A stretch of DNA of 64,000 nucleotides. Source: Amoebophrya sp. A120 (lineage: Eukaryota; Protista; Dinoflagellata). How positions within the stretch are numbered: the stretch's first letter is position 1; the number at the start of each line of letters is the position of its first letter. The notes below the pieces were generated by a model, which was not told where the DNA came from, did no database searches, and worked only from the letters and a program-made list of their open reading frames with translations. The stretch spans positions 3,106,833 to 3,170,832 of the forward strand of contig CAJINV010000005.1 in NCBI GenBank assembly GCA_905178155.1, read 5' to 3'. Of this stretch, positions 1-61,570 are shown one piece after another. The translations under genes were made by a program, and so were the position numbers.

Positions 1-2
1 TG

Positions 3-9404: not shown

Positions 9405-12400
9405 ATGAGAACCGTACGCCGAGAAGTTTCTGCAAGAACCGCGGGTGCCGTGCCCGGTACGCACTCGCGTTTTTGCAGACCCACGTTTCTTGTGCTTGCT
9501 CTTCATCTACACCTGGATTTCTTCTTTGATCCCAGCAGCCAGGCGCTGGTTCGCGCTATCCAGGCTGGTGTCGCCGAGAAAGGCGCAGCGAGTTCGCGTG
9601 CGGTCAAGACTGACGAAAGAACTGCAGATCTTCATGCTGGCGGGTCCACTACTTTTTCCCAGCAGGGTGGAGACAATTTGCACGACATCAACTATTCGCA
9701 CGGCTACAGTGAGACGGCCGGTGGGGAGGGGACACTAACGAGTGGCGGCGGCGACTCATTACAGCAGAGAAGGGTCTTGCAGCTCCACAACGACGGTGAC
9801 TCCGAGGCGTATTCTCCGGAGGAAGCCAATGATCATGATCATGCACAGGCATCATTGCCTGGAAAAGCATAGACGCAACGGCCTTCTTCCTTCGCCAAGC
9901 TCGAGGACCAGGACAAGTACTATGAAGCATTCGAACAAGCAGCTGCACCAGCTGCACGGCAACAGCCGCAAAGCGAACCAGCCCAATCAACACAGCAAGA
10001 AAAATCGACCGCTGCTTCTCAGGATCATGTTCATCAGGATCAACATGCGGAAAACGAACAACAATCGCACGGAAATTTAGTTCCTGTGGACAGCTACAGC
10101 AACAGCGCCACGAGCTTGGAGGCCCGGGTGGAGCGGGCGGAAGCGGAAATGGCGCGGATGAGACAGCAGATGCTGGAAATGGAGGAGACCAAACGGGAGC
10201 TCGCAGCTCTGAAGAACGCTTTTGGAGAGGAAACCTCGTTTGTGCGGAAAGCGCTCGCGCGCGTTCGCTGGTGCGGGGCCATCACCGTCAGCTTGATCCG
10301 CTTTCTGCTCGAGTCGTTCATTTGCTACGAACGGGTAGACACGGTGTTTGGGTTTTACCTGCTGCTCTTCGCGTACGTGTCGATGGTCAGCGGGACGTTG
10401 ATGCCCGTCAAGATGATTTTCTTCCCGCACAAAATTCTCCTGAAGATTTCCCCCCAGGGGCTGGCGCAGAAGGTGCACGCGAAGCTTTCTCCCTTGGGTG
10501 GGCGTTTTGCCGCCACGACCGGCAGCTCCTCCTCGGGGGACCATCCTGGCGGGGACAGCACATCAGAGCAGAAGCAGGAGGGCGAGGACGCTGGCGACGA
10601 GAGGACTGGTGGTAGTCTTGCAACCATGGAGGTCGGGAGGGCAACTGCTCCTGTGAATGTTAAAGCAGAGGACGAACAGCGACAGTTGCCGGAAGAAACC
10701 GGGGCCGACGCCGAAGACCTGGACAAGCCTTCAACGAGAACAGAAGGGGAGGATCAGGCCCAAGCACAAGCCCCGGAGTACGAGGAAGGCAGAATGTTTC
10801 CGCGCGGTTTCCTGGCGGCGGGCACGCTGTCCTGCGTGTGCCAAGATAGCGACAGTGCGGAGGGGAAGCTGTTCACCCTATTCCTGGTGCTGTACATGAT
10901 GGCCACCTTGGTAAGCCAGTACCCTTTTCATGCTATCCCAACAGAGAAAACGCTAGCCTGTGCTTGTAATGCAAAAGTGAATTTTTTTTTTTTTTTAGAA
11001 TTTAAATTTAAATATAAGGCAAACAAGGCCTGTCGTGCATAGCCGAAACAGCGTGGTGTCCTATGGGCCTGCCCATGACAAGTTTTTTGTTCTTGCATTG
11101 GCTCTGCTAGCTCTTTTCTCTCCGTGTGATACACCCTTACCGCTCGTTCTGCCTCTGGCGAACGGAAGAAATGGCCAGTGACCGGGGCGATCTGGCGTCG
11201 CCGCGCATGAGTTCGGATTTCGAGATCGCTTTGCGCGCCGTTTGGCTGGTGGTACCCACCTACTTCTTCGTCGTAACGGCCGTGATACAAACACACAACC
11301 CGGATACAGACGAAGTCGAGAGCAGCACCGCGGCCCGCTCGGCGGCTGTATCGCGGATCGCCGCGGCGGAGGACGGCGAGGCGGCTGAGGACACGCCCCG
11401 GACGCGCACGCGAAAGCTCCGTGCGGCGACGCGGGAGAACCGCAGAGCCCAGGTGTTTTACCTCGTGCACTGGGCCGCCGCCACCACCGCCAGCCTCACC
11501 CTCCTCGTGTTCGAGATGGTGCAGCTCTTTTGGGGCGAGCAGGTTCCCCTATCGTACCTGACCGCGGTGTTCGACACCGATGCGGTGGACCTTTTCGACC
11601 AGCTGGCCACGCTATGCATTGCAAAAATGTCTGGGTCTGGAAGGTTGCAACTTGTCATGCTGTTTTTGAACTGTAAAAAAGTTTGTATTGCATGACCAGC
11701 AAGAGGGGTACAGTTTTTGCTACACGGACAGGGCATTTCTCATGCGGAAGGTGCATCAGGAAGCCCTCTAAAAGTCTGCGATGCTAGGTTAAGCATTACA
11801 GGCATCATGGGTCATGAGAAGTATGCATGACAAATCTTGCATTCTTCCAGGCCCAGGCATTTTTGCAGTTGATACACGCGGGAGGGCTACCTGTGGCACC
11901 TGGGGTGTCTGGACTATGCGCAGACCCCGCGGCCGTGGGAGCGGCATATCAAATGTAAAAATGTCTGGGTCTGGAAGAATGCAACTTGTCATGCTGCATT
12001 TGGATTCCAGAAAAATCTGTATTGCATGAGTACCAAAAGGAATGTGATTTTTGCTACGCGGAGAGGGCATTTGTCATGCGGAATAGGCATCAAGAAGCTC
12101 TGAAAAAATCTGTCATGCCAGGGCATGCATCACAGACATCAGGGCTCATGCAAAACGTGCATGACAAGTGTCAGAATGTTCCAGACCCAGACATTTTTAC
12201 AGTTGATACGGCATACCTGGCTCCGACTCCTCGGCATCTGCCTGGCCCTTTGCTGCGCGATTTCGTTCCTCACCATGCGGGCCATCCTGAAGAAAGTGCT
12301 CCCGCCCATGCAGGATTCCTCACTGGTGCAGCTACCCTCGTCCACCTCCCGGACCACCCGAGGCCACGTATCAAAAATGCAAATATCGATCTGGGTTTGG

Positions 12401-15172
12401 AAGAAACTCTTGTGATACAACTAAAATCATCGACATTAAGATGAGAGCACATCTAAGTGCAGCCGAGCATGACCGGTTTTATTTGAGACCCTCCGTCATG
12501 ACATCAGTTGTGCGCACTACTTTCACTTTCTGCATGTACGACATCAAATGAGGCCTTTAGTCTCGTCCCAACGTGGCATCACATCAATGAAGCTGCGCTC
12601 TCGATTAATCGGTCATGCAAAAATGTTACAGATTTATTGCCCGGACCCGAATGGGCCACACATGCAATACACGTTGACCTTTTCGTCCAGGCCCAGATCA
12701 ATAGCTGCAATGGATAAGGAGGACCGCACGACGACGTCTTGTGGGCGAACACAGTGACTAGGATTAGCGTCGCGCGATGTTCGTTTCTCTCGGAAGTGCT
12801 CCTGTGCTACCTCCTCTTCGCCTTGCCGCTGATTGCCTCGCACCACATGGTATCAATTGCAAATGTGTCTAGGTTAATATCCGGATGAGTGCAGACGTTT
12901 GTCATGCGCATTTTTTCGCATGACGCAACACGCATCACAGATTTGTTGAGGGCCTCTTGATAGTACCTGTTCCGCATGAGAGATGCCCTCTCCGCGTGCC
13001 ACGAAATGGACTTCCGCTCCTCTGGCTGCTCATGCGAAAATGCCGACGTTTTCCTTTTCCTTTTGAATTTGAGAATAAATATGAAGGCAGCTGCATCACA
13101 AGTCTTGCTATCGTTCAGCCCCGGACGAGGACGTCTTTGCAATGCATACATGGTCACCCGCCACGCCCTTTCGCTGGATGACCACATGAATGCGGAGCAG
13201 CTCGCGGAAATGGTGCTCATTCGCGGTGTATCAAATGCAAAAATGTCTGGGTCTGGGAGGAAGAGGATAGAACTTTTGATGCGTGCTGTGGGTCACACAA
13301 CAATCTGTGTTGCGTGATCACCAAAAGCTGTCCTTTTTTGACCAACATGCGCGGGAGTTTCTCATGCAGGATTGGCATGATAGAGATTTCGCAGAATCTG
13401 TCATGCTAGGTCCTGCATTCCAGACCTCATGGGTCATGGAAAGGCAGCATGACAAATCTCGCAATCTCCCAGACCCAGACATTTTTACATTTGGTACGGT
13501 GTGGTGGAGCGCTACGAGCGACTTCTGCCCCCAGAGGACCTCTACACGGAAGACTTGCACAAAGTTCGGTTTTATGCATTGCAAATATGTCTGGATCTGG
13601 AGGAGTGGTGCAAGTAGAGAGAAGTGTGCTCCTGAACTCCCAAGAACATAAGTACTTCCCAACTCATCTGTCATGCGTGTTGCGGAAAAATATTCAGTTG
13701 GCGCTAGTTGAAGCGCAGCTTCTGATGCGCCTTACGCACCACAGGATCGTTCAGGTCTGATCTGCGGTGCTTGGCTGCGTGCTGACATTGGAGCTGGCAT
13801 GACAACTATTATTGGATCCAGACATATTGGCACTCGATAGGCGCCAGTCGTTCTGGGACTTTGTGTCGTACCCGGAATTTTCCGAACTCCACGAAGTCAT
13901 GGGGCGCAAGAAAGGCGAATTGGACACCCTCGCGGATAAACTGCTCATGAACCCCGCCAACCAGCTATCCTGCGCGGGAACGTGCCCACCTTCATCCCAT
14001 AGTCCAGACGCGACTCGTTCCAGACAAAAAATTGATTCAGACATTTTGCATGCAAATATGCACGACAGCTCTCTGTTGGTGGGTACGGTTTTGAGCAGCA
14101 TACCCGCGCGCCTCACACCTGTCAAAGGTTCTGGCGGACCGGAAGAAGTTCGGCGGGATGGTCCGACACATGAACACGCCATATGATGTATCATACAGAA
14201 AAAATCTAGCTGGTGCTTAGCACTACACATGTGATGCATAGAATGAATTCCTTTTTTCGCAGAAGGATCTCGCCACGGGGTAAGTAGTTCACCCATAGCA
14301 TGCTGCTTGAGACTTCTTGCAAGAGCGCTTTTTTTGCGGATCTATTTTTGCACTATGCAAGCTTTTTTCTGTGTGATAGGATGAGTGGATCGCACAAACA
14401 CGGCATATATCAAATGTAAAAATGTCTGGGTCTGGAAGATTCTGAGATTTGTCATGCAGTTTTTCCAAGCTCCGCCAAGTCTCGAATGCAGGGCCTAGCA
14501 TCACAGGTTCTGCAGCCCCTCGGTGATGCCTATTCTGCATGAGAAATGCCCCCTCGGCATGGCTAGAAATGGGGACCTTTTGCAAGTCATGCAACACAGA
14601 TTTTTGTATGATCCGCAACACGCATCACAAGTTCGCATCCTTCCAGACCCAGACATTTTTACATTTGATAGCATATGACTCGTGACTTCGCGGAACTCGC
14701 AGCGGTGCTGCGCGAAATGTTGGAGCAGAGGGACAGCTATCAAATGCAAATATGTCTGGGTCTGGAACGTTGCAGGACTTGTCATGCAAGTTTTCCATGA
14801 CCCATGAGGTCTGGAATGCGAGACCCAGCATCACAGATTCTTTGAGGTCTCTACCATGCCTTTCCTGCATGAGAAACTTCCTCTCAACTTGGTCAAAAGC
14901 GGACAGCTTTTGGCACTCACGCAACACAGATTTTTGCATCATTCAGATTTAGCATGACAAGTTGCAGTGTTCCAGACCCAGACATATTTGCATCTGATAA
15001 CAGCAAAAAAGAAAAAGCAGGATCCTATGGAGCCGCGGCGGCATATTTCCGCAACCACGTGGGGCCGAAACCACAAGCGCTTGACCACAAGCACATCAAG
15101 AATGGGAGGCAGGAGGACTTCGCGCTTGCCTTCGAAGAGGAGGACTTCGGGCCCGCTCTATCAGATCGATAG
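9405..15172 (+). CDS. Multi-exon multi-pass membrane protein of unknown function, interrupted by 11 TIR introns
   Basis: Removing each element plus 5 nt gives a continuous frame from 10086 to the stop at 15170-15172 (e.g. LFDQLAT-REGYLWHLGC...WERH-TWLRLLGIC...SHHM-VTRHALS...QRDS-KKEKAG...LSDR*). The 5' part (9405-9869) is in the same frame but separated by a TAG at 9870-9872. Confidence 0.75.
10934..11131. mobile_element. Introner/MITE intron, TIR subfamily B
   Basis: Left TATCCCAACAGAGAAAACGCTAGC vs right revcomp TATCACACGGAGAGAAAAGAGCTAGC; flanks CATGC/CACCC; removal restores frame. Confidence 0.75.
11613..11874. mobile_element. Introner/MITE intron, family A (262 bp)
   Basis: TIR TATGCATTGCAAAAATGTCTGGGTCTGGAAG...CTTCCAGGCCCAGGCATTTTTGCAGTTGATA; perfect TSD CACGC. 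Confidence 0.9.
11947..12208. mobile_element. Introner/MITE intron, family A (262 bp)
   Basis: TIR TATCAAATGTAAAAATGTCTGGGTCTGGAA; perfect TSD CGGCA. Confidence 0.9.
12369..12716. mobile_element. Introner/MITE intron, diverged family A
   Basis: Left TATCAAAAATGCAAATATCGATCTGGG vs right revcomp TATCCATTGCAGCTATTGATCTGGG; flanks CCACG/AGGAG are diverged; frame restored by element+5. Confidence 0.7.
12851..13148. mobile_element. Introner/MITE intron, family A
   Basis: TATCAATTGCAAATGTGTC...GACGTCTTTGCAATGCATA; perfect TSD CATGG. Confidence 0.85.
13229..13496. mobile_element. Introner/MITE intron, family A
   Basis: TIR TATCAAATGCAAAAATGTCTGGGTCTGGGAG; perfect TSD CGGTG. Confidence 0.9.
13573..13839. 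mobile_element. Introner/MITE intron, family A
   Basis: TATGCATTGCAAATATGTCTGGATC...GATCCAGACATATTGGCACTCGATA; flanks GGTTT/GGCGC. Confidence 0.8.
13966..14102. mobile_element. Short introner/MITE intron with a distinct TIR
   Basis: Left TATCCTGCGCGGGAACGTGCCCACC vs right revcomp TATGCTGCTCAAAACCGTACCCACC; flanks CCAGC/CCCGC. Confidence 0.75.
14189..14378. mobile_element. Introner/MITE intron, subfamily B
   Basis: TATCATACAGAAAAAA...TTTTTTCTGTGTGATA; flanks TGATG/GGATG. Confidence 0.8.
14408..14670. mobile_element. Introner/MITE intron, family A (reverse orientation)
   Basis: TIR TATCAAATGTAAAAATGTCTGGGTCTGGAA matches at both ends; perfect TSD GCATA. Confidence 0.9.
14738..14999. mobile_element. 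Introner/MITE intron, family A (reverse orientation, 262 bp)
   Basis: TIR TATCAAATGCAAATATGTCTGGGTCTGGAAC; perfect TSD ACAGC. Confidence 0.9.
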
Positions 15173-17001: not shown

Positions 17002-18668
17002 ATGGAGATCGTGATCTACCTTCTCGGCAACTGGTGTTGCATAGGGGCGGCCTCCATCATCATATACAACTTCATCATCCGCAGGGGGCACTGCAAGGAC
17101 AGCGAACGCGACCTGCAGATATCAAAAGACATGCAGCTCATGCTCTTTCTCGGGACCTTCGTCCGCTTCTACTGGTCCATGAGCCCACCACCAATCTGGT
17201 ACAGAAGATTTTTTGCTTCCGACGTTTATAATTCTTCAAATTACACTCCTGTAATGTACTCATGACACCAGAGCAGCTCGTGTGTGATTGTGCGGCAGCA
17301 GTGTCATTGCTGTCAGTCTGTAATACCTCAACAGTATCACAACACGCAGTTCATTCTAGAAGAGTCGGTGCTGCAATCTAGATGTACTGGATGCTCTTCA
17401 TTTCGCCCTCCACCGCTGATAGAGAAATACATTGCACTTCGAATATAAACTGATCTTGTTCTGCTCAGCAACAAATAAATTGGAGTGGTTTGTTTCCGAA
17501 AATACAGAGTGGTTTGTGCTTGAGTCGATTGCTTGAATTATCACAGGTCTGAGGAGCCGGTACCAATTCAATGGGTGTCAATTTTCGACCTGATTTTTTC
17601 CATTCTGATGTGGGGCCTCTGCGTGTGCTGCTCAACAGACTACGGCGTGCAGTTTATGAATTCCATGGGCGGAGTTGGCCGTGGCGGATACAACGCAGTC
17701 CCGGGACAGGCGGAGTTTGGTATTCATTGCGACTTTATCTTCCTCTCGCTCTCGACAACTTACTACGCAGATCTAGTAGCTACCATACGAACTTTTCTCG
17801 ATATGACGGAAGAGACCCGAGATTTCTTTCAGTTTTCCGGGAAGAAGTTTTCAACAAAAGTTTTTCTTTGTGTAGCCTCATGCGCTATCTATCGATCTAT
17901 TAGTAGAGGACGGCGACCGCTTGTTCCAAATCCAAAAGCATCCATTTTTTCATCGCTAACAAATCGTACGACAACAGACGGCCTGGTGCAAGACGACTCA
18001 ACTGGTTATGCGGGCGGCTCGGGCGGCGTAGGAGGTTTCGGGTCGGGCAAACCGCAAAACCAGTCGGCCCTCTACCGGTACACGCGATGGCCCTTCCTGA
18101 CCGGCGGCGCCGCGGTCACCGCTTGGCTGCTCACCCACCTGCTCCCCAGTCTGCACATGCCGGGCGCCTGGATACTAGTCGACTTCGCGGTGGTCTTCAA
18201 CATGCTCCTGGACGGCTGCGCCATGGTGCCGCAGGTGATACTCATCCACTCCAGCAGGACAAAAACTCCGGTGGAGGCCAGCCACTTCGTCGGCCTGCTC
18301 TGCCTCGGTATGGTTCAATGTTGATAGGATACGGAGCATGTGCGTTTTTGTTCTATATTATCTGCTCAACAGGAGCAGATGCCTTTGCTTGCATCACCAC
18401 CGGACTAAGTATTACGTTGCATCAAGAACTAGTACATCGAAGCATGAAGAAAGCCATCTCTTTCATTCATCACGCAGGCCGCCTACTCCGAATGATCTTC
18501 TGGCTCTGGTTGGTGCTGCACCCGGATTCCGGGCACGCAATATGGACGTTCGTCGTGCCAGATCTGCTCCACACGGTGATTATGGCAGATTACCTGTACC
18601 ACTACCTGCAGAAGCTGAAAAGGGACAGGATCGACCCCTACTTCGTCGATTATATGACTCACGTATAA
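17002..18668 (+). CDS. ER lumen protein-retaining receptor (ERD2/KDEL receptor)-like, paralog 1
   Basis: ISKDMQLMLF..RFYWS, LDGCAMVPQV, SHFVGLLCLG-RLLRMIFW, DLLHTVIMADYLYHY; GT-AG introns at 17199-17546 and 18308-18477, probably another near 17710-17977. Confidence 0.75.
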
Positions 18669-23650: not shown

Positions 23651-26058
23651 ATGGAAATCCTAATTTACCTGCTCGGCAACCTGTGTTGCATTGCAGCAGC
23701 GGGGTTGCTGGCGAAGCAGCTGCTGACCAGCAATGTAAATACCGAGACGAGCCTGCACATCTCCAAAGACCTGCATATGGCGTGCTCAGCTGGAACAATC
23801 TCAACATAGAGGAATCTGTGATGCAAAGAAAACGCGGATGATCGACCTCGTCTCCTGTCTGCTCAGCATGACAAACAACTTGTGACTGCTGTAAACTGAA
23901 CCAGAGCTGAACCAGAGTTGTCCATGATTAAGAAGAATTGCCGGGCTTCAAATAAGCTGCAGTAAGTACTAGTCTTCGGCACTCCGCAATTTTTGCGTGG
24001 ATAAAAAATACCATGTGAAGATCTCTATTCACATCGTTCTTCCAGTTCAGATCGTTCCAGCTGAGTACGCCATAGTGCAGTACATGCTTTTCTTCGGCTC
24101 CGTATTCCGACTCTATTGGAGCTTGTCACCGCCGGAGATCTGGTAAAAGTTTTGAAATAGGAATAGCAAAAGAAATGTAGAAGTATATTAGTACTCGATC
24201 TCGAATTCTAATAAGTACCAGAGCCAGGCAGAGCATATCTTGAATCACTTTGCACGTGATTAACCCTCACACTCAAGGTCAGAAGAGGCCACAATAGTGC
24301 AGTATCTGTGCTTCGCTGACCTGGCCGGTACCGTCTTACTCTGGGGCCTGTGCGCCGTGCTTTCAACCAAGTTCGGGAAAAACCTCTACTGGGAACTCAC
24401 CGGCGTCCGGTCACAAGACAGCAAAGCGAAAGGTAGGTGAAATAATTTCGATGAGTTTAGCCACGAAAGTGAAAGAATACCGCTCTTCACGTTGCTTGGA
24501 TATCATATTCGCAATGTGAAGATTTGGAACTTTTTCTCAGCTTCGGCACGACTTCGCGTGTATGAAAACAATGGATATAAAAACACCACAGCGAAGAAAC
24601 CAGCGGAAGGTTTTACTGCTCTCTTGACCTGGTATCGTAGAGAGAATAACTAGAATGTCGCATCTTTGTAGTTGCAAAATTCAATGACAATCAATGAAGT
24701 AAGAACTACTTGAAGAACTACAACATTTTGAGAAATTGTGTCATGGGAAAGCCCATGGCATGCATGTTAAGACCAGACGAATCTTTTCGCGTGTTCATTT
24801 CCACGGGACAAAGCCGACATACTAGCTTTTTTCTATGTGATACCTAGCCAATACTTTCGGTAGCCGCTGGCGTTCTGGCGTGGTTAGCAACGCATGTCCT
24901 GCCGAGCTTAAGTGGACCAACAGCTTGGCCCTTCGTGGATTGGGCAGTACGTTATGAAATGTTTGTTTCAATATGCTTTTTCTTGGAAAACATATGTGAA
25001 TGAGCAAGTTTGTTGTTTGCTTGATACTTAGACTTACCAAAAATTCTGTCCAGGTTGTGTGGAACATGCTTATCGACGGAATGGCAATGATATCCAACGA
25101 AGATCGTTTGGATTCGTGTAATTGGAAATAAATCTGTATACACAGAGACCAAGAAGTTGCTCTTGCACCACTTCGTCTCATGCCGGATATCGATATTCTG
25201 CATGACAGGCTTCGTGCTTCGGGCAGCACAAAGATTGTTGTTTTTGTACAGAGGGAGGACGCTTCATTGACTTTGACTCCTTTTTGTTTTGTTGGATAAC
25301 TGCTGCCACAAATTCTGACTCTGTCCGCGTCAGAGGAAAAAACACCAAGAATAACATCGCACTTCGTTGGCTTGCTGTGCGTAGGTACTTTATTTTACAA
25401 GAAGTGCTATACTTGAACATGATGATGATAGTGGTTCGGAATTGCCTGGAAATTATCCTGACATGTTGATTCGTAAGTCATGCGAACTTCCCTTATGTAC
25501 GGAAGAACAGCTTGGATCGATTATGTCGGTCAAAAACTACAAATCAAAAAGGTCGCGTCTTGCGCATGATTTTTTGGATCTGGTTATCCACTGGGAAACA
25601 TCAGGCGGAGCAAGATTGAGTAACATATTTCGGGGTCACGTCACGTTGCTCCATTAAGTTCGGCGGGGCGAAGATCTGTCATGTTTTTGTCGAAACGCGA
25701 CGCCGACGCCGGGCCGTGAGTTCGGCGGAGCCAATCTGTCATTCAGATTTCTATGCGATTGCAAATCTAACAAATCCGTTGAGTCGACGAGTACTTTCGT
25801 TTCATCGACTTTGGCAGGCTGTCGAGGAGGTCATCTGAACGCAACTAAACATGATACTCACTTCTGCTTCCTTGCCTGTTTTCCATTCGATCCCATTTGG
25901 TGTTCCACCCAGAAGCCGGACACGCCATGTGGACTTTCATCCTGCCGGACCTGATGCACAGCGTGGTGATGGCGGACTTTTTGTACCACTACGTCCAGAA
26001 GGTAAAACGCGACGCGAAAGAAATGCTCAACTTCGGTTACGACTACGCGCACGCGTAA
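23651..26058 (+). CDS. ERD2/KDEL receptor-like, paralog 2 (highly fragmented by introns; missed by the ORF track)
   Basis: Exons align with paralog 1: MEILIYLLGNLCCI, ISKDLQYMLFFGSVFRLYWSLSPPEIW, LAWLATHVLPSL, NMLIDGMAM-LPQI, TSHFVGLLCVG-RVLRMIFWIW-LVFHPEAGHAMWTFILPDLMHSVVMADFLYHY. Confidence 0.8.
23776..24074. mobile_element. Introner/MITE intron, distinct TIR
   Basis: Left TATGGCGTGCTCAGCTGGAACAATCT vs right revcomp TATGGCGTACTCAGCTGGAACGATCT; flanks CTGCA/GTGCA. Confidence 0.9.
24633..24842. mobile_element. Introner/MITE intron, subfamily B-like
   Basis: TATCGTAGAGAGAATAACTAGAATGTCG...CGACATACTAGCTTTTTTCTATGTGATA; flanks CCTGG/CCTAG. Confidence 0.8.
25091..25298. mobile_element. Introner/MITE intron (diverged)
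   Basis: TATCCAAC...GTTGGATA; flanks AATGA/ACTGC; join AM-LPQ matches paralog AMVPQ. Confidence 0.7.
25585..25892. mobile_element. Introner/MITE intron (diverged)
   Basis: TATCCACTGGGAAACATCAGGC...GCCTGTTTTCCATTCGATC; flanks CTGGT/CCATT; join IW-LVFHP matches paralog. Confidence 0.65.
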
Positions 26059-27087
26059 GCCAGTGCAATAGAATGTGGGTGGATTGTCAAAATGACAAGA
26101 GTACTTACTTTCTTCACTTGTTCGTACTTGTTTCTCATGCGTGAAATAAGGCTAGGCCGCCGGTCTAGCCTGTTTCACAGGGAAGGCAAGTGACGCGGCT
26201 AAAGATTGCAGGCTTGTTCATTCCCATGGACGAGGCTGCTTAAAACATTGGCAGGAGTGTCTGTCTTTGCCCCAAACCGCAGGCGAACTCGACTTTGCTT
26301 ATCATGGGTAAAGTTTGCCACGCGTCGCGTGCATTTGCCGCGCCGCCAGGCTGGCGTCGTGTTTATGCGAGACAAACTGCTAATGTCCATTTTGTCGATT
26401 CCCCACCTCGCATTCGTTCCCATAACGCAGTATAAGGAGCAGGCTGACCGTCTAGTAAAACAAAAACTACCACGAGGCAGAGTCCGGATTTCCGCTTTTT
26501 CACAGAAGACGACACGACCCGGCTCCTCCTGAACCGTCTTGGAAGATGATAAAACACTACTACCTCGCGCGCACCTTAACCAGCAGACCGGCTGTTCTTG
26601 TCCTGTTCAATTTTTGCGGATTAATGTCACGAAATATCAAATATTTTTCCACAATTCCTTGCTTTTCCGCGACGCTCTGTGCCCTGTACTCCAGGCAGAG
26701 TTGGCTTCTCTTCTTTCGATGACGACAGGAGAACAAATTGTACAAAGAAAAGAAAAACTAGGACGCTTCCGATTGGAATCGTCCCTTGGTTGAAGCAATG
26801 GCCTTGGACGCAAGTATACAAACTACAAGAAACACATTCGATGCTTTTGATACACATCATTCAAAAACTCCGATAGAATCGATTTTCAAAGTTGAAAAGG
26901 TCTGGCGAAACTAAAATGATCAACTTATAAGCAGGACGACAATAAAGGAGCAGTAGCAGTACGAAGACGCTCACTTACCTTGCGAAAAAAACGCAGAAGA
27001 ATTTGTTTATTGTGCATTAGACTAGTTGCCGCAATCAGCCATGTTCCTGTCTTGTTCATACAGTACGCTTAAGAAGGCACAGATTGT

Positions 27088-32904: not shown

Positions 32905-33931
32905 TGATGATTTTGCACCCTCTTTCTGTAGAAGCGTCTGTTGCTTCTATTGTTCTCTTCAAACTTATTTCAAGCTCAAGCAAGATTCGCACGTGGACGT
33001 GATTTTTTGTAAGATTTGGTTTCGGTAGTTTTGTCTTGCAGCAGTCGTTTCTTATTTTTGTGCGGTCGCCTATGCCACTGTTTTGACATCATTATGAAAT
33101 AAAACTTGTCTGAAGTTTTGCCGGACTGTTTTGCAGCTGTATCCTCTTGCGAGATGTGATAAACATAAACGGCCGACGACAACAAGTTGCATTTGCGATC
33201 GCCAGTCGTCGTAGGAAGTATCTACAAAATGATGTGTTGCAGTTGGATGTACACTGCGTGTTGCCCAGAACTACACGCAACCTTGAACAGGAAGGCTTTT
33301 GTCTTTCGATCTTCTCGAAGCTTGCTTCCCTGTAGTAGAAGTCGAGCAAAGTCGCAAGGATAAGGAAGTCGACCGCCGGAGTAAATATCAGAAGACGCGC
33401 ACGGGTCGTGTGGTCTTCTCGCTTTCGTTTGAAACGTTTCGACAAGTTGGAAGTAGAGCGAGCCGGGCCTCAGTTCTCTCAGCCGAGCGCGGGTAGTAGT
33501 TTTTGATAAAGCAGCACACAGACGAACACCAGGTTCGTCTTTCGTTTCGACGAGTGAAGAAACCTCGGCGCTCACAAGCAAAACAGTGCGTCATTTTTCA
33601 TCAGTTTCCATTTTTCGTACGTCGATTCCTAGCTGGTGCAGCGACAAATTCGTTTGCCCGAAGCGGGGACCCGGTCGCATGGTATATCGCTGGAAAACAA
33701 AAGTATAGCATAGGCGGAGCGACCGCAGTGGGTGATTATGCTGGGGCCACCGCCGCCTCCGTGCGTCAGGCGGAAAAAAATGTAAGTAAAAACCTTCATT
33801 CTGTCTCTTTGCGGGATTGAAAATACGAAAACCACTTTAATGCCAAATTGACTCGTGAATTGCAACTGGTGTCTTGACCCAGCTCCAAGCTTGTGCAGCC
33901 GCGGCAGTTACGAAGAAGTTTTATCGACAAA

Positions 33932-46900: not shown

Positions 46901-48146
46901 TCAAGAGCAACTACTACCTCAACGCGGCCGCCCAGCTTGCGGGCATCACAAAATTCCCCGTCGACGCCACCCCGGCGCAAACCGTGTGGGGCACCGCGAT
47001 TCACGGCAAGACCGGCTCGTGGTCGATGGACAGCGGAACCCCGGAGATCTACGACCACATCTACCGAGTCCCGCAGTACCTATCAAATTTTGCAACATTG
47101 GCGTGGTGGTACTGTATGATGAAAGTACATCAAGAAAAATTAAGCTTTTTACATCGCCTCTACAATGCCGGTCGTCTTCACGAAGCTGTGTACGAGACGA
47201 GATGTAGTTGGGAAAAGAAAGGGACGCATAATATCACATCCCAACAATATGTTTTTTTTGCATGGTCATACCTTCAACCTCTACGTCTACCGCCACGCCA
47301 CATATTTGAAATCGATACCCTTTACCCGGCTTCCCCCCTGCTATGCTGGAAAAGGCGATCCCGAAGGCGATGAAAATCATGGCCGGCGAGCTGGAGTACG
47401 GCTACGTCGGCAAATATGGGAGTGTCAGGATCGAAATCGTCAAAGTTGAAATAATCTGTAATGCAAAAAAGCGATACCAGCTGGAGCCCAGTTTGCAAGT
47501 GGCGCATGACAAATTTTGGCAGCATGGAGATCCAATTTACCATGCTGTTTGAGCAGAGAAGACTGCTTTTGTCATGTTATTCTAACAGCTCTATCTCACA
47601 CCCCAAACAGGCTTATAATCGGCCTGAGTTGCCTGCTCTGCAAGACAGGCACTTTGCGTCTAGCATTTTATGCATCACAAACTATTTCAACTTTGACGAT
47701 TTCAATCCTGACGCTTCCATAGCAAAGACGACACCTACATTTGCGACTCCCGCGACAACCCGAGCCAGTGCGCCTTGATCGGTGGGGACCTGTGGAAATG
47801 CCTCAAACACTACGACGCCAAGAAGTGCCACTTTTGCGAGAACGCGGGTGACTCGCTGCGGTGCGAGGTAAGGGGATGGAACTCGCACGGGGAGTTCTGG
47901 GAGCGCGTGCCCATCTACCCCCGGGACGTGCTGGGCGAGATGTTCCGCGACGAGTGGCGCGACTTCTACGCCCGACCGCTCATGACGCAGGTGGACATTC
48001 CGAAGTCGATCACGCGGAACGTGACTAACTTCAAAACTCTGCCCTGGTACATGGTGCAGGACGCCGCGCCGGAATACGACCTAAAGTCCCGCATGTACCT
48101 GTTTCCCTTCGCCGAGGCCACGCCGACGAAGGTGCTGATGCGATAA
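43990..48146 (+). CDS. Hypothetical protein with a ~350-aa Lys/Ala-rich basic region and a Cys-containing globular C-terminal part
   Basis: 731-codon ORF continued via 46175-46417, a GT-AG intron 46563-46707, 47081-47317 and 47415-47721 (joins VASK-TGVTRIFE, MCAQ-VPKKL, YVGK-DDTYIC). Confidence 0.7.
46175..46417. mobile_element. Degenerate introner intron
   Basis: AATGTTGTTGAAATT vs AATTTCAGCAACATT inverted; perfect TSD CAAAA; right terminus eroded (GTGACG). Confidence 0.65.
47081..47317. mobile_element. Degenerate introner intron
   Basis: TATCAAATTTTGCAACATTGGCGTGG...CCACGCCACATATTTGAAATCGATA; TSD not clear; frame restored. Confidence 0.6.
47415..47721. mobile_element. Introner/MITE intron with a long (~55 bp) distinct TIR
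   Basis: Left TATGGGAGTGTCAGGATCGAAATCGTCAAAGTTGAAATA vs right revcomp TATGGAAGCGTCAGGATTGAAATCGTCAAAGTTGAAATA; perfect TSD GCAAA. Confidence 0.9.
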
Positions 48147-54162: not shown

Positions 54163-54949
54163 ATGATGAAGAAGATTGCTCTCGTTACCGCTGCCACCCC
54201 CCTGGGAGGGGAGTTCGCCTCTGCGCTGGTGCAGAAGCAAGCTGGGAGTGCGACGCATTTTTGGTATCAAAGCGAAGTTTTATTTAAGCTGAGAGGTCAT
54301 GATTCACACTTGGGATAACATAATGCATTATGCAGGAGAACAAGAACATAGAACGACACTGAAAGCGTGCTCACATCAATATTTCTCCGTCGTCCAGTGG
54401 TGGGCACGAACGCGTCTCGTTGCAAATGCACTCTGTGCAAGGAATTCTCATCTCTGTACCATAGAATAGATAATCCGCAAAGTCGTGAACGTGTGCGCTA
54501 CGTCTACGCAAAGCCGCGACAGCTCGCCGTGCCATGAATGCTGGCAAGATCATCCTGCGCCCCCATATCGTACATTCGTGTGCTGCTAGCTCGGCTAAAA
54601 ACTTTCGGTGCATACTTAGGCTGGGAGTGAAGCAACGCCGTCCGGCTTCATGCAGAATGAGCGCGTTGACGTTGAGCATGGCGGGAAGAAAAAGAGATTG
54701 AACAAGGGGAAGACCGAGGAGAAGAAGGTGGAGAACAAGAAGAAGAAGGTGGACGAGAAGGCCGAGAAGAAGCACGAGCGGATGGCTACCACTGCGTCTC
54801 CTGCCCCTGCGCTTACCACAAGCGAACCACCCACGACACTACAACCAGAAGCGCCCCAATATGCGCCGGAACCGGAGATACAACCAGAAGTGCCCCAATA
54901 TGCGCCGGAACCGGAGACGCCCGCGCCGGAGGTGGCAGTGTCGCAGTAA
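54163..54949 (+). CDS. Short Lys/Glu/Pro-rich protein with hydrophobic N-terminus, two exons; paralog of 62443-62853
   Basis: Spliced ATHFW-AGSEATPSGFMQNERVD aligns with ATHFWVGSESSPIGLMEVDRVD of the paralog. Confidence 0.75.
54265..54614. mobile_element. Introner/MITE intron (diverged)
   Basis: TATCAAAGCGAAGTTTT..AAGCTGAG vs CTCGGCTAAAAACTTTCGGTGCATA; flanks TTTGG/CTTAG. Confidence 0.7.
54842..54919 (+). repeat. Coding tandem duplication, 2 x 39 bp
   Basis: QPEAPQYAPEPEI / QPEVPQYAPEPET. Confidence 0.9.
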
Positions 54950-56397: not shown

Positions 56398-59300
56398 ATG
56401 AGCCTTCGGAACAAGAGTACCAGTGGTTCTGCCAACTCAGCCTTCCCGATGCAGAAGCGACAAAAGCAGCGGGAGGGCCAGGTGCTGTTCCGCATCCGGC
56501 GGGGGTTCTGCGATCTGGACGAGTCCGCGATAACCGTCACCGCGGCCGATCTGGTGGCGAAGACGGGCAGAATACGGCTCAAAACGGTCGAGGACTTACT
56601 GAAGAAAGTGGTGGTGCCGAAAATTGGTACGCACCGGGTTTTTCTGCAACTTATCTCCTTTAAGTCGGGCGAAAGGCTCCCGTTGGTGACGCCAATGGCC
56701 TACATTTTGAATCACGTGGTGAACGTCAGCTGGAAAAAGGACGCGACGGTGAGCAACGCGCAGGTGAACCTGTTCACGGAGGAACAGGATTTTTTACCCG
56801 TCGACGCGGTATTGTTGTCACCGGAAGATAGTGGGTTTCAGCAACATTATGGTACTGCATCCGCGTCCGCTTCGGAGCAAGAAGAACCAGACGTGGATCT
56901 TTGCGTGATGGTGACGCAAAAAGCATTAAATTTCGAGTGGGGCGCGACGGAAAGAGGGTTGCGGGTGAAACGCACCCCTGCGGCAGCGCCGACCGCCTTG
57001 GTGTGTAGTTTCCCGCCGAGAACGACGGGGACTACTAGTCCTGCTGAGACGAGGGAAAAAAGCGCCGCCGCATCTTCATCCGGAGAAGTGAAGGCAGCTT
57101 CTGAAGAGTCTTCTGCAAGAAAGGACACTTTTCCTGCTGGAGGAGCTCTTTCCACTGAGAGTATACCGGAACAGGATAAAGCGCCACCGAATCTTCAAGG
57201 CGGCGGGGAGAGCTCCTCACCTCTGTCGGCAAAAGCAGGTGGGAAAATGAACACCAGCAGTTCTGCTCCGCCAAACTCAATATCAAGCCCCAACAAGGAA
57301 AATAACAGTTCGTCGTCATCTCCAGCCGCGGCACCTAGCTCCGCCGAAGAGGTGTTTCAAATCAACGTGACCTCCGAAGACGCGGACAATATGCCGGAAC
57401 TGATTGGCATCCTCCTCGAAGACGCCATCACCTGCCTGCCCAAGCAAATCCGCGCCACCGCGAGTGGCGCCGAGCTGCTGCAGAAGATCCGGGCGTCCGT
57501 GTGGAAAAATCTCCCGTTTGACCTGGTCTCGCAGCCACCGTATTTGAAACTGCGGTACCGAAACATGGACAGTGACGATGATGACCATTTCGACAGCGGC
57601 TCCATGCGCCCGACAAATCTCTTTCACGTGGCCTGTTCGCTCGGGGAGCTGCAGGCGGTCTTGGAGATGCTGCTGGAGTTGTTCGAGGAACTGAAGCTGG
57701 ACGGGACGACACTGGAGAACTGCGTGAAAGAATTGTGTTCAAACGCGTTTGTAGAACAAACGGAAAGCATAAAAAGCAGTGAAGAAACAAGAAGGAAAGA
57801 AACAACTTCTGGAGTTGATGAGGACTTTGAAGAGCTGCAGGGAGCAGGCGGTGCTGAAGACGATATCGATGGTTTTATGCCCACAAATGAGACCAGCGAC
57901 GGCACGACCTCCGACGCGGCGTTGCAACAGCACTTGCTAGCTTCCGCGGTAATTACGGGACGAGTAGGAGCAACAGCCACTTATAATCCTCTATCCAGTG
58001 CCGAATCGGGCACCGCGACAGACGCGGACACCGTGCTGTCCAGGAGGGAACTACAGGCCGAGGGCCACTATTACAGTTCCACCATGGGCGAGACAACCAC
58101 GCAGTCCGAAGCAGAGCAGCCGCTTGGAGGGGCGGCTGTTAAAGTACTAGGCGAGGAAGATGGTGCACAACGTTCGCAAACGACCCTAAATAAAGATCAG
58201 GAAGAAACTAACGACTCTACAAAAGGAGCAAAGCTTGACAAGGAAGTACTAGATGCAAATCCGGCCACTACGACTTCCACTGCACCGCCGAACAAGGGCC
58301 GGGGCCGCCGAAACAACCGCCGGGGCTCGTGGAAGAAACGGCAAAAAGAAAAGGAAAAAGAGAAGAAATCGAAGGAGGAGAGCCGGTGGCAAACGTTGAG
58401 TTGCGGCAAAGAGCGGCAAAATATCACGGTGACAGACTTGGACCTCGTGCTCGGACTGTTTTTTTCCAGCGCAAGTGACCAGCTCGGGGTAAGGAGGAGT
58501 TATATTTTTCTTAGTTGTAGCTAGGCTCTTTCTCTTGTACTACGCAAAAATGAATCGCTTGTGGATGGATTTAATGACGAGCGTGCGGTGCTTTCTTTCC
58601 ATCTGTTTGATGACAGATGGTTCGAGTGTATTTCTATCGTCACGACTGGTCCTTCAAATATTGATATAAGTACCTCCCTAGAAAATCAAAACCACCACTA
58701 CGTACAGGTCTTCCGCCTACTTCTCACCGCTATCAAGGAGCTCCTAAAGCACAAGAAACTCTTCGCGCCGCAGATCACCTTTTCGGACGTTTTGAACGCA
58801 ACCATCATCGTGAAGCCGCAGGAGAGCAACGAAAACAAACAGCAGCACAAGCGCGGGCGCAATCGGATGAACAGGAGGGTGCAGCGCTTGGAAAGCTTGA
58901 AGCCTGTGGAATACATTTGGGTCAACGGGAAGATCCAAACGGTGGAACAGGAGCAGTGGCTGATGAACGAAAATATGAAAGAGCACAACAGCCCAGAGGG
59001 AACAGGCTCGAGTAGCAACTTCCACCCGCTGGCGCTGCTGAACCAAATCGTCAACGAGGAGGCGATTTGCTGTCTCAAGGAGCTCTTGGAATTCAGTCAC
59101 AAGCAGACCCAGCAGAGTTCTTCTTCATCATCCGCCTTTCCCGAGCTCATTCTGGAAACGGATTTCCAAAATCTGATAACGCGGGACTTCGCCGCCGAGT
59201 ACTACCGCAGCGGAATTCATACAAGTGCGGACGGCAGCCGGGCAAACACTGTCGGGTCTGCCGACACGCATTTGCTGCACTGGGTTCTAGAAAACGTGGA

Positions 59301-61570
59301 CGAGTGGCGGTTGCTATCCCTGGTGAAGATCCTCGCACCTACCTACGCCCGGAAGTGCAGAATGGAGCAGCGGAAGTACAAAGCAGACCACCTTGGTTTA
59401 ACACCATCGTCAAATAAGGCCAACACTTCATCTGTAGTCGCAAGAGGGCCTGGATCTGGATCTGCTTTCTCCACCGCGCCGCCCGCGGCAAAACTGGAGC
59501 AAGAAGAAGACAACTCCATACCATGGGTAGACATACACATATCTTCACGTCACGATCCTTCAGTGGCGAAGGAAAAACAAGCAGAGCAAGCGTCTGCATC
59601 TAGTTCCGCTGCGCAAGGAAATGATCAAGATGGAGCGGTTGCTAAAGATGCAACAGGAACAAACATTTCCGCTGCAGCTGCTGATGCAGTTCCAGCAGAA
59701 CCTGCAAAGGACGAAACACTTCTTCCAACATCAAGTAACAACAGCGTGGTCAAGCCGCCCAGCCCGAATCCCGTCCTCAAAGATAACTCCGTGTGCAGCT
59801 CTTGCGGGAATCAGACTGCGAGTGCAATGGAGCTCGTCACCGAGACATTCCTCTACGATTTTAAGTATAACGCGATCTACTCCCTGTGCAATCGCGTGGA
59901 CAATTTCCAGGACGCGGAAAAGGTCGTGCCGGTGTTGCGCTGCCTACACAAGAACGGGGTCAATCTGAAAGCGAAAAACAACATGATGACCCGGGAAACG
60001 GCCCTGCACAAGCTGGCGAAACGGTCGTGGGCGCGGGTGGAGGCCGGCGCGCGGATGGTGGAGGAACTCAGCCGGCTGGAACCCAGTCTTCTCAGCTGCA
60101 AAAACCTGCAGGGGTTGACGCCACTGCACCTGTGGGCGCAGCACACGAGCGGGCACTACGGGTCGAGTCACGCGAGCAGCAGCAGTTCTAGCTCCTCGTC
60201 CCGGGCGAAGATTTCCATCGAGGAGCGCGTTCTCCACGCACTCCTTCCGGCGGACAAGTTTGAGCTCTGCGAGCCGTGCGGCCACGACCAGCGCACCGTG
60301 CTGCACCGGTTGGCGACCCGGGGCCTCGCCTGGGGCGGGCGCAGCACGTGGACCGACGCGGACACGGGGGCGTCAACGTGGTCGTTGGCAGGGGTCACGG
60401 ATTTCATCTTGTTAAGAGCCGGAAGGGAATGCGCGGTAAACCTGTTGAACGCGCGGGACTGCAAACAGCGCACGGCTTTGGTCTTGGCGTGCAAAAGAGG
60501 GCACGACGAAATCGTGCGGTACTTGCTGCCGCGGATGAACCTCCGCGGGTTGCAACTCGCGGATTTGCGAAAGAAAACCGCGTACTTGTACGCGGTGCGG
60601 AGTGTGGCGCCCAAGGAGGTGCTGTACGCGTTTGAGAAAAGGCTGGCGAACGAAAAACTGCCGCTCGGGTGCAAGGACAGAGAGACAAAGGTACTTACTA
60701 CGTGGTACTTGATGGTTTTTGAAAATGTTTGCGAGTTCATTTCTCGCTTGATTTTGATATCTACGGTATGTGGCTTTGAATTGCACTCACGGTTGCAGCT
60801 TTAGTTACTGGCAAAGAACAAGCACACGGTCCTCGTCCATTTTCGAAAATACAAACTCGAACTCCACTCCAGGCCGAGCTTTCCGAAGTTCTTCGCCTAA
60901 ACGACGAGGCAACAACAGCAGCAGCGTCGGAGGAGCAGCAAGACGTCCCCGGGGGTGTTGACGTATCAACTGTAAAAATGTCTGGGTCTGGAAGATTCTG
61001 ACACTTGTCATGCACGTTTTGCATGAGCCATGATGTCTGTGATGCATCCCCTAGCCATACAGATTTTTTGAGGGCTTCTTGATGCCTATTCCGCATGACA
61101 AATGCCTTCTCAGCGTAGCAAAAACTGTATTCCCTTTGCTGCTCATGCAATACAGATTTTTTTGGAATCCAAATTCAGCATCACAAGTTCCAATCCTCCA
61201 GACCCAGAAATTTTTACAGTTGATACGACCTCTCCTTTCACGATTCGGACGGCGCGGCGTCCGATATTTCCGCCAACTTTATCCTGTGCAAAAGTATCGT
61301 ACTCGTATAAATGCAAGTCTTGCATTACAAATATTTTTCTTAAGGTAAATCAGCATGACAAATTTTATTTGTCATGCTGAGAAAATTTGTAATGCATTTA
61401 TACGAATACGATACATACTTTTGCAGTTCATAAACTTTTCTAGTTCGCAAAATTCCAGCGATGCAACGAGCGACGACGACGATGACGACGACGGGGATGA
61501 CGACAGCGACTTTTCGGACGACAGCGATGATTCCTCGGGCGATGGGGGGGACTACGATGAAGGCTGGTAG
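56398..61570 (+). CDS. Large ankyrin-repeat protein with acidic C-terminal tail
   Basis: Ankyrin motifs RETALHKLA, GLTPLHLWA, QRTVLHRLA, QRTALVLACKRGHDEIVRYLL; in-frame GT-AG intron 58489-58707 joins the two long ORFs; 3' exons joined through an unresolved intron near 60690-60805 and two introners. Confidence 0.75.
60964..61225. mobile_element. Introner/MITE intron, family A (reverse orientation, 262 bp)
   Basis: TIR TATCAACTGTAAAAATGTCTGGGTCTGGA; flanks TGACG/CGACC; close reverse-complement copy of 11947-12208. Confidence 0.9.
61280..61432. mobile_element. Short, nearly fully palindromic introner intron
   Basis: TGCAAAAG-TATCGTACTCGTATAAATGCA vs TGCATTTATACGAATACGATA..CTTTTGCA; perfect TSD AACTT. 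Confidence 0.85.

What the first reader, a model, noticed from the sequence alone, without database searches (positions are those of the whole stretch)
10934..61432. About 32 TAY...RTA MITEs act as non-canonical introns: element plus 5 nt removal restores seven genes
Seen: the elements lie in coding sequence, carry TIRs that mostly begin TAT/TAC, and are flanked by 5-bp direct repeats that differ at every site (15 perfect, e.g. CACGC, CGGCA, CATGG, GCATA, GCAAA, AACTT). Excising element plus one repeat copy opened the frame at every junction I translated, and most junctions offer no in-frame GT-AG pair. Established: introner elements with inverted and direct repeats and non-canonical splice sites have been reported in Amoebophrya, so the phenomenon is not wholly new, and its mechanism is unresolved to my knowledge. 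Inference: excision is guided by the TIR hairpin or a TIR-binding factor rather than by splice dinucleotides.
Basis: partly seen in the sequence, partly recalled or inferred. Interest (0 to 1): 0.9.

Follow-up and report, generated by a model that had tools for sequence, protein, structure and literature searches.

The report
Transposon introns cut at fixed offsets
Thirty-one small transposon-like insertions split seven genes of a marine parasite and belong to an intron class already described in this strain; the junctions that can be read fit one fixed cut position that ignores the usual AG end signal, which would give a testable rule for a splicing mechanism that is still unknown.

Summary
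I count 31 elements with inverted ends and 5-bp flanking repeats in seven genes; removing element plus 5 nt opens the frame. Deposited proteins name the organism as Amoebophrya sp. A120, and Farhat 2021 already describes these introners in that strain (TAT-starting inverted repeats, short direct repeats, RNA-seq support). The phenomenon is known.

What I add: the duplication is exactly 5 bp (109 of 126 further copies perfect) with no target preference, copies sit in both orientations, and imperfect repeats bracket the cut. Six junctions require that at least 4 bases of the upstream repeat stay in the mRNA, two that at most 4 do. One register fits all: the intron starts one base before the element (N-T-A, like this genome's G-T-A donors) and ends four bases after it, whatever the dinucleotide. 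Neighbouring AG sites are passed over. The paper left this border open; five literature searches found no statement of it.

Direct RNA evidence is thin (contig ends at three elements); most comes from transcript-based deposited proteins. A relaxed spliceosome is slightly favoured over a hairpin-guided enzyme; untested. The scan noted similar introns in other genomes.

The parts
9873..15172 (+). Host gene 1, unknown membrane-type protein, one open frame of at least 830 codons after removal of 11 elements; deposited as two pieces (P0005, P0006)
   Evidence: no Pfam hit
10934..11131 (.). Element, repeats CATGC/CACCC; 4-6 upstream repeat bases kept
   Evidence: RNA contig leaves the DNA at 10932; P0005 residues
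11613..11874 (.). Element, main family, CACGC/CACGC
11947..12208 (.). Element, main family, CGGCA/CGGCA
12369..12716 (.). Element, repeat decayed (CCACG/AGGAG); 4-5 bases kept
   Evidence: P0006
12851..13148 (.). Element, CATGG/CATGG
13229..13496 (.). Element, main family, CGGTG/CGGTG, right end GTA
13573..13839 (.). Element, GGTTT/GGCGC; 4-5 bases kept; a same-length GT-AG pair exists but gives another residue than P0006
13966..14102 (.). Element, CCAGC/CCCGC; 3-5 bases kept
14189..14378 (.). Element, TGATG/GGATG; in-frame GT-AG alternative not used by P0006
14408..14670 (.). Element, main family, GCATA/GCATA, 31-bp perfect inverted ends
14738..14999 (.). Element, main family in opposite orientation, ACAGC/ACAGC
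   Evidence: RNA contigs of X1 and X3 join the window exactly at 15000
23651..26435 (+). Host gene 2, KDEL-receptor-like (PF00810), four GT-AG introns and five elements
   Evidence: P0007
23776..24074 (.). Element, CTGCA/GTGCA; 1-5 bases kept
24633..24842 (.). Element, CCTGG/CCTAG; 4-5 bases kept; restores an invariant Trp; AG one base further not used
25091..25298 (.). Element, AATGA/ACTGC; 2-4 bases kept (upper bound of the register)
   Evidence: P0007 reads MLP
25585..25892 (.). Element found only through P0007, CTGGT/CCATT, right end ATC; at least 4 bases kept
26056..26424 (.). Element, left end TAA, ACGCG/ACGCA; at most 4 bases kept; CAG acceptor two bases on not used
   Evidence: RNA contig loose end behind 26054 continues at 26429; P0007 ends HAV
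29871..32904 (+). Host gene 3, unknown protein, 594 codons after removal of five elements
30047..30335 (.). Element, CTGTA/CTCTA
30375..30625 (.). Element, left end TAC, GGACC/GGACC
31420..31587 (.). Element, TCGCA/CCGCA
31876..32134 (.). Element, TGCCA/TGCCA
32496..32752 (.). Element, AACCG/AGCCG
33739..42863 (+). Host gene 4, unknown; 3' part from 37541 modelled stop-free over 1118 codons, 5' part unresolved
38192..38479 (.). Element, left end TAG, AGTGG/GGCGG
38525..39492 (.). Element of 968 bp with a GC-rich interior, GGCGG/GGCGG; longest Met-initiated frame 92 codons
39903..40118 (.). Element, AAGTG/AAGTG
40907..41168 (.). Element, main family, AAACG/AAACG
41257..41466 (.). Element, GCACG/GCACG
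46708..48146 (+). Host gene 5 (modelled part), unknown
47081..47317 (.). Element, no repeat left (GTACC/CCCTT)
   Evidence: sequence only
47415..47721 (.). Element of another family, GCAAA/GCAAA
54164..54949 (+). Host gene 6, 144 codons, short paralog near 62446
54265..54614 (.). Element, TTTGG/CTTAG; fewer than 4 bases kept gives a stop; AG one base further shifts the frame
   Evidence: sequence only
56398..61570 (+). Host gene 7, ankyrin-repeat protein
60964..61225 (.). Element, main family, TGACG/CGACC
61280..61432 (.). Element, AACTT/AACTT
17002..18668 (+). Control gene, KDEL-receptor-like paralog with three GT-AG introns only
   Evidence: RNA joints in X1 and X3; P0001

Best explanation
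These are Amoebophrya A120 introners: short non-coding elements with inverted ends and a 5-bp target duplication, likely spread by a DNA transposase acting in trans and likely removed from pre-mRNA at one fixed register by a relaxed spliceosome. Shown: the elements are in the DNA; deposited transcript-based proteins and RNA contigs lack element plus 5 nt; the duplication is 5 bp with no sequence preference; copies lie in both orientations. Inferred from bracketing: the intron begins one base before the left end (last base of the upstream repeat) and ends four bases after the right end, so the mRNA keeps 4 bases of the upstream copy and 1 of the downstream copy, which rebuilds the target site exactly. 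Inferred mechanism: the left end supplies U+2/A+3 of a GUA-like donor with +1 free; the right end (A at -7, U at -6 in 30 of 31) marks the acceptor by distance and no AG is needed; the stem helps to pair the two ends in young copies but is not the ruler. Because both ends carry the same terminal motif, any insertion in either orientation would be a ready-made, sequence-neutral intron.
For: Identity: 100% identical deposited proteins named Amoebophrya sp. A120; Farhat 2021 section 11 describes A120 inverted repeats as TAT + 7 nt + at least three A. Removal: P0005/P0006 skip all 11 elements of gene 1 and P0007 all 5 of gene 2; my model, built without them, gave the same 11 junctions; KDEL-receptor homologs align without gaps at four junctions. 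RNA contigs leave the DNA at 10932, join it at 15000 (two samples) and jump from 26054 to 26429, while DNA contigs run through with no other letters (pieces 11, 13, 18). Duplication length: perfect at 5 nt in 109 of 126 further copies, 0-12 of 126 at lengths 2-4 and 6-10; no base preference and 48 of 51 clearly framed flanks in frame after element+5; 27 same, 22 opposite, 7 unclear orientation among 56. Register: lower bound 4 at 10934, 12369, 13573, 24633, 25585 (deposited proteins) and 54265 (stop codon); upper bound 4 at 25091 and 26056; all 16 junctions with a deposited protein allow 4. Canonical donors all GTA (12 of 12 listed). Farhat Table S4: all nine leading A120 non-canonical motifs have T at +2, and all nine in A25 start TT, where the repeat starts TTA. 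U2, U4, U5, U6 snRNAs and 83 of 89 spliceosomal proteins were reported, U1 snRNA not found.
Against: No single junction pins the register; the upper bound rests on two junctions of one gene, and a mix of registers 4 and 5 is not excluded. Only 15 of 333 joints were displayed and none was an element joint; the RNA evidence is contig ends at three elements, from runs whose RNA status is a guess (they do show spliced GT-AG joints). Deposited proteins are gene models from transcript alignments, not reads. Fifteen elements in five genes have sequence evidence only. Canonical introns here keep an invariant AG, so one spliceosome would need two acceptor modes. A branch point at -7 is unsupported: by eye only 6 of 14 canonical introns have A there. 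Most elements (25 of 30) do fold with in-register terminal pairs, which would hide the donor. T+2/A+3 are also the transposon's own ends, so their constancy need not reflect splicing. No transposase was found; Farhat argue against general transposase mobilisation for that reason.
Confidence: 0.55

Rival explanations
1. Same elements and same fixed register, but cut by a dedicated stem-recognising nuclease/ligase or TIR-binding factor outside the spliceosome, leaving a 1-nt 5' and 4-nt 3' overhang on the stem, like the nonconventional introns of Euglena.
For: Stems join the ends in most elements (z -8.0 for 14408-14670; -3.0 for 25091-25298; in-register terminal pairs in 25 of 30). No acceptor dinucleotide; both orientations work. 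Euglena introns have a stem with a 3-nt 5' and 5-6-nt 3' overhang (PMC12501133 passages). U1 snRNA not found. Window elements lean to G-U over A-C mismatches, 22:11 in 21 elements, p=0.08.
Against: 26056-26424 folds strongly (z -5.2) but its stem is out of register with the ends, yet it is cut at the same offsets; 5 of 30 have no in-register terminal pairs. Wobble test null in 56 young copies, 33:39. The donor coincides with canonical +2/+3. Farhat found inverted repeats in only about 30% of A120 non-canonical introns in their first pass (68% by profile search).
Confidence: 0.3
2. Removal is exact but the cut slides within the repeat (registers differ between introns); the apparent single register comes from few junctions.
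For: Farhat Fig. 3 legend calls the splice sites variable relative to the hairpin. Upper bound from two junctions only.
Against: Eight bounding junctions meet at one value; junctions with almost no repeat left (12369, 25585) obey it; Table S4 donors all have T at +2.
Confidence: 0.1
3. The elements are excised at the DNA level in expressing cells (as ciliate internal eliminated sequences are), or the junctions are reverse-transcriptase jumps between repeats across a hairpin.
For: Hairpin plus short direct repeat is the known setting for template switching (recalled; one such paper seen as a search listing only). Contigs drop rare variants, so a minor excised DNA form is not excluded.
Against: DNA contigs are unbroken through seven elements with no other letters. 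Elements with 1/5 or 2/5 repeat identity are skipped as exactly as perfect ones. The register is polar to transcription. A conserved KDEL-receptor gene needs five removals to be read at all.
Confidence: 0.04

Closest known systems
Amoebophrya sp. A120 introner elements / non-canonical introns (Farhat et al. 2021, PMC7789003; read: abstract, passages, sections 11, 12, 16, 25, supplement part with Tables S4-S6 and figure legends)
   Same: Same strain by the source names of identical proteins; inverted repeats starting TAT, short direct repeats at the borders, about 240-260 nt, RNA-seq-supported removal, no transposase inside.
   Different: The paper gives direct repeats of 3-5 nt, variable splice sites and an unknown border. 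Here the duplication is uniformly 5 bp and one register fits. Figures 3 and S19-S25 are pictures I could not see; they may show part of this.
Introners of Amoebophrya A120 in the cross-species survey (Gozashti et al. 2025, PMC12130899; passages)
   Same: Diverse TIR-transposon-derived introners, tens per gene; one A120 family carries an integrase-like frame between inverted repeats, a possible kind of helper.
   Different: The passages read say nothing on splice register; no element in this window encodes such a protein.
Euglena nonconventional introns (PMC12501133 passages; PMC11282704 passages)
   Same: MITE-like origin, stem joining the ends, slidable borders resolved with non-slidable introns, longer 3' than 5' overhang.
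   Different: Signature N3CDG...CH'GN5-6|R with a purine opening the next exon; here N-TA...AT(A)-N4 with any base next; unrelated lineage.
Fritillaria borealis non-GT/AG introns (PMC13326754 passages; PMC11282704 passages; the 2019 primary paper not read)
   Same: MITE-derived introns escaping GT-AG in a genome with only a U2-type spliceosome.
   Different: They keep preferred ends (AG-AC, AG-AT) and U1 is present, with duplicated U2AF; here the acceptor has no preferred dinucleotide.
Micromonas and Aureococcus introners (through PMC11282704 and PMC7789003 passages)
   Same: Non-autonomous TIR elements whose target duplication completes the intron so that the target is rebuilt.
   Different: They use canonical splice sites; 0 of 31 here are GT-AG at the fitted register.

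Membership tests
Amoebophrya A120 introner elements | Inverted repeats at the two intron ends | tested here: met
   (8-22 of the first 22 bases complementary, ungapped)
Amoebophrya A120 introner elements | 3-5-nt direct repeat over the exon/intron borders | tested here: met
   5 nt; 22 of 31 with at least 4/5 identity; 109 of 126 perfect elsewhere
Amoebophrya A120 introner elements | Repeat starts TAT, then about 7 nt and an A tract | tested here: met
   TAT in 28 of 31 left ends; A tract seen in the main family
Amoebophrya A120 introner elements | Present in many copies | tested here: met
   main family: 142 loci, about 450 stretches estimated; other families not tested
Amoebophrya A120 introner elements | Removed from transcripts at non-GT-AG borders | tested here: met
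   16 of 31 by deposited proteins, 3 of these also by RNA contig ends; 15 untested
MITE / non-autonomous TIR DNA transposon | TIRs, constant target duplication, no coding capacity | tested here: met
   30 of 31 are 137-369 bp
MITE / non-autonomous TIR DNA transposon | Cognate autonomous element or transposase | not testable with these tools
   no whole genome held; end pattern absent from viral contigs
MITE / non-autonomous TIR DNA transposon | Filled/empty polymorphism at DNA level | not tested
   only protein-level colinearity with homologs
U2-type spliceosomal intron | GT-AG (or GC-AG) ends | tested here: not met
   0 of 31 at the fitted register; 5 of 56 other copies in any register
U2-type spliceosomal intron | Branch point and lariat; dependence on U2/U5/U6 | not testable with these tools
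   A at -7 in 30 of 31 elements but 6 of 14 canonical introns (by eye); no lariat data
Euglenid nonconventional intron | N3CDG...CH'GN5-6|R signature | tested here: not met
   ends read N-TA...AT(A)-N4, next exon base any
Euglenid nonconventional intron | Stem bringing the ends together | tested here: inconclusive
   predicted in 25 of 30, absent in 5; predictions only
DNA-level eliminated sequence | Element absent from the bulk DNA of expressing cells | tested here: not met
   DNA contigs unbroken through the elements; rare excised forms not excluded

The most novel reading that the evidence does not exclude
Amoebophrya has a second, AG-free way to end an intron: a ruler that cuts one base before and four bases after any TA...TA-ended element, shared by A120 and A25 through an N-T-A donor and run by machinery other than the normal AG-dependent second step (a rebuilt U1-less spliceosome mode or a stem-end nuclease/ligase convergent with Euglena). 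It makes every 5-bp-duplicating insertion, at any site and in either orientation, a perfect intron, which would explain tens of thousands of introners.
Probability: 0.35. Interest if true: 0.8.

Novelty: already known. Interest (0 to 1): 0.45.

Why it matters
The introns themselves are published for this strain. The open question is how they are spliced, and the published border was left undefined. A single register turns 'hundreds of splice motifs' into one rule (N-T-A donor, acceptor four bases past the element), tells which bases to mutate and where to look for a branch, would let gene finders model these genes (gene 1 is deposited in two pieces though it reads as one frame), and explains why unselective insertions are tolerated. 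If genome-wide reads confirm it, a specialist would find the loss of any acceptor dinucleotide beside ordinary GT-AG introns worth a mechanistic study.

Tried and rejected
No whole genome is held, so no genome-wide count, snRNA search or transposase search. The 2026 raw-read run X10 barely holds the stretch (125 reads, 99% running on unlike) and gave nothing. Laying a DNA run together with RNA runs drowned the joint table in repeat-to-repeat joints. No read-level view of 22400-33400 was obtained, so gene 3 has no junction evidence beyond word shares (0.58-0.59 in four RNA-like runs against 0.90 in two others, about the exon fraction). The end pattern has no match in viral contigs. A search of cluster representatives with an exon of gene 4 found nothing. 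G-U versus A-C asymmetry: not significant (four coordinates were off and were corrected). More G at intron +1 in the window (14 of 31) than in young copies (14 of 56): p=0.06, not claimed. A fixed branch-point distance shared with canonical introns: not supported. A 2-bp (TA-type) duplication: rejected and by the junction residues. My Viterbi model was right for gene 1 but wrong for parts of genes 2, 3 and 4, where it chose GT-AG shortcuts or used a wrong start; it is not evidence there. A relaxed search of 33700-37540 gave four weak candidates, none accepted. In one search, 56 of 126 elements passed the orientation filter and 51 the frame-margin filter of 2; at margin 0 the count was 65 of 87 in frame.


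Full report
What is there. The window (50% G+C) holds compact genes on the + strand. A strict scan for TAY...RTA segments with complementary ends and a flanking 5-bp repeat gave 19 hits, 13 with a perfect repeat; ten Markov shuffles gave 1-4 hits and 0-1 perfect. Relaxed scans, a gene model, reading by eye and deposited proteins brought the list to 31 elements in seven genes: 11, 5, 5, 5, 2, 1 and 2. Thirty are 137-369 bp, one is 968 bp. Fourteen have a perfect repeat; ends are TAT in 28 and ATA in 29. Element+5 nt gives stop-free models at the 26 junctions of six genes tested that way. About 1.5 kb of one gene (34800-36300) stayed unmodelled.

Whose DNA. Three exon queries returned proteins 100% identical to the window and named Amoebophrya sp. 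A120 by their sources. Farhat et al. 2021 (PMC7789003; I read the abstract, passages, sections 11, 12, 16, 25 and part of the supplement) report for this strain that over 60% of RNA-seq-supported introns are non-canonical, that introner families have inverted repeats starting TAT, then seven bases and at least three A, with 3-5-nt direct repeats, and that U1 snRNA was not found while the other snRNAs and 83 of 89 spliceosomal proteins were. These elements are those introners. The paper leaves the border 'unknown' and calls the splice sites variable relative to the hairpin. Gozashti 2025 (passages) lists A120 introners again. Five searches of the library and passages of two reviews showed no statement of the register; subscription papers are mostly outside the library and Farhat's Figures 3 and S19-S25 are pictures that I could not see.

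Are they removed from RNA? In the one read lay-out obtained (10200-26100), runs X1 and X3 show spliced GT-AG joints of the control gene, so they behave as RNA although their type is a guess; X7 behaves as DNA, with pieces 10200-11638, 12184-13252 and 14970-26100 running through seven whole elements without other letters. An X1 contig follows the window to 10932 and then leaves it with 221 letters still to go; contigs of X1 and X3 join the window exactly at 15000, the first base after element 14738-14999, with 1017 and 246 letters before; an X1 contig has a loose end behind 26054 that continues at 26429. Only 15 of 333 joints were displayed and none was an element joint, so this is evidence from contig ends at three elements. 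The rest comes from deposited proteins, which are gene models built on transcript alignments without a splice-site prior: P0005 and P0006 skip all 11 elements of gene 1, P0007 all five of gene 2. P0007 aligns with four KDEL-receptor homologs without gaps at the four junctions inside the conserved part. Fifteen elements have sequence evidence only.

Insertion side. A scan of metagenome contigs with the main end motif gave 142 loci, holding 126 distinct complete elements. The flanking repeat is perfect at 5 nt in 109 of 126 and in 0-12 at lengths 2-4 and 6-10. Using a codon model from the window, 48 of 51 clearly framed flanks are in frame after element+5 (65 of 87 with no margin); the duplicated bases show no preference; 5 of 56 oriented copies offer GT-AG in any register; 27 lie in one orientation to the gene, 22 in the other, 7 unclear. 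This is what unselective insertion by a DDE-type enzyme with a 5-bp stagger would leave (established knowledge, recalled); no such enzyme was found here, and Farhat doubt general transposase mobilisation, while Gozashti describe an A120 family with an integrase-like frame between inverted repeats.

Where the cut falls. Where the two repeat copies differ, the product tells how many bases (k) of the upstream copy are kept. Lower bounds of 4: 10934 (k 4-6; also RNA), 12369 (4-5), 13573 (4-5), 24633 (4-5), 25585 (4-7), and 54265, where fewer gives a stop. Upper bounds of 4: 25091 (2-4) and 26056 (0-4; RNA and protein agree). All 16 junctions with a deposited protein allow k=4. If the register is fixed, the intron starts one base before the element and ends four bases after it. 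No junction proves this alone and the upper bound comes from one gene. At k=4 the intron starts N-T-A (N: G 14, A 8, C 6, T 3) and ends in 12 different dinucleotides, never GT with AG. The 12 canonical donors I listed are all GTA. Farhat's Table S4 fits: the nine leading A120 non-canonical motifs start GT, CT, AT or TT, and the nine in A25 all start TT, where the repeat begins TTA. Nearby AG sites are passed over: two bases downstream at 26056 (RNA), one base downstream at 24633 and 54265 (frame), three bases upstream at 14189 (protein). In-frame GT-AG alternatives exist at 4 of the 11 junctions of gene 1 and the deposited proteins use none.

How it may work. Two readings remain. (a) A relaxed U2-type spliceosome: the donor is reduced to U+2/A+3, supplied by the left end; the acceptor is set by distance from the right end. 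For it: the match to canonical donors, the reported spliceosome, the tunicate precedent, and elements whose stem no longer reaches the ends yet keep the register (26056-26424; 5 of 30 without in-register terminal pairs). Variants at the left end touch only the third base; the one element found without my motif (25585-25892) keeps A-7/T-6 but not A-5. Against it: canonical introns keep AG, so two acceptor modes are needed; a shared branch distance is not supported (A at -7 in 6 of 14 canonical introns, by eye); the stem would hide the donor; and T+2/A+3 are also the transposon's ends. (b) A stem-end nuclease/ligase as proposed for Euglena: most elements do form a terminal stem, but the wobble test gave no strand bias in young copies (33:39) and only a hint in the window (22:11, p=0.08). 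I put (a) at 0.55 and (b) at 0.30. Variable register (0.10) and DNA excision or reverse-transcriptase artefact (0.04) are less likely: elements with almost no repeat left are skipped exactly, and the DNA holds them.

Verdict. Real, and already known in this strain. The increment is an exact 5-bp duplication, orientation independence and a candidate single splice register that I did not find in print. That makes an open mechanistic question easier to test but rests on eight bounding junctions. Earlier notes of this scan report similar odd-ended introns in other genomes (unchecked) and none in this one. Interest 0.45.

Noticed in passing
window 27088-28043: Intergenic 956-bp element that is an imperfect palindrome over its whole length, ends CAGGGGTGCAGAGCTC, unrelated to the introners; longest Met-initiated frame 116 codons; no copy in the fetched loci.
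   Followed up: partly
window 38641-39400: GC-rich interior of the 968-bp element, with a 14-bp direct repeat at 38754 and 39227; may be a second element nested in the introner; no match in window or loci.
   Followed up: partly
window 9873-15172: The gene is deposited as two proteins (P0005 partial, P0006) but reads as one open frame; exon 11136-11611 bridges them.
   Followed up: yes
window 17002-18668 and 23651-26435: Two KDEL-receptor-like paralogs 5 kb apart, 51% identical; one has only three GT-AG introns, the other four GT-AG introns and five elements. Depth differs between RNA-like runs X1 and X3.
   Followed up: partly
window 54164-54949 and about 62446-62850: Two short lysine/glutamate-rich paralogous genes sharing ATHFW-GSE; only the first carries an element at that Trp codon.
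   Followed up: partly
window 34785-35150: By eye, a possible intron with a 4-5-nt repeat (AGTG) at both borders, GT start and no AG at the frame-keeping end, and no TA ends; may be a fully decayed element. No transcript evidence.
   Followed up: no
window 14915-14996: 109 reads of run X10 and one X1 contig match this piece of an element end and share the same foreign sequence before it, suggesting an abundant transcript elsewhere that keeps part of an element.
   Followed up: no
window 1-9000, 20489-21971, 43969-46185, 48982-50100, 51234-53337: Several long genes carry no element at all while neighbours carry up to 11; insertion or retention looks clustered by gene.
   Followed up: no
canonical introns, e.g. 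17199-17547, 24143-24277, 24433-24591: All listed donors are GTA and the 3' ends are A/C-rich with little pyrimidine tract.
   Followed up: partly
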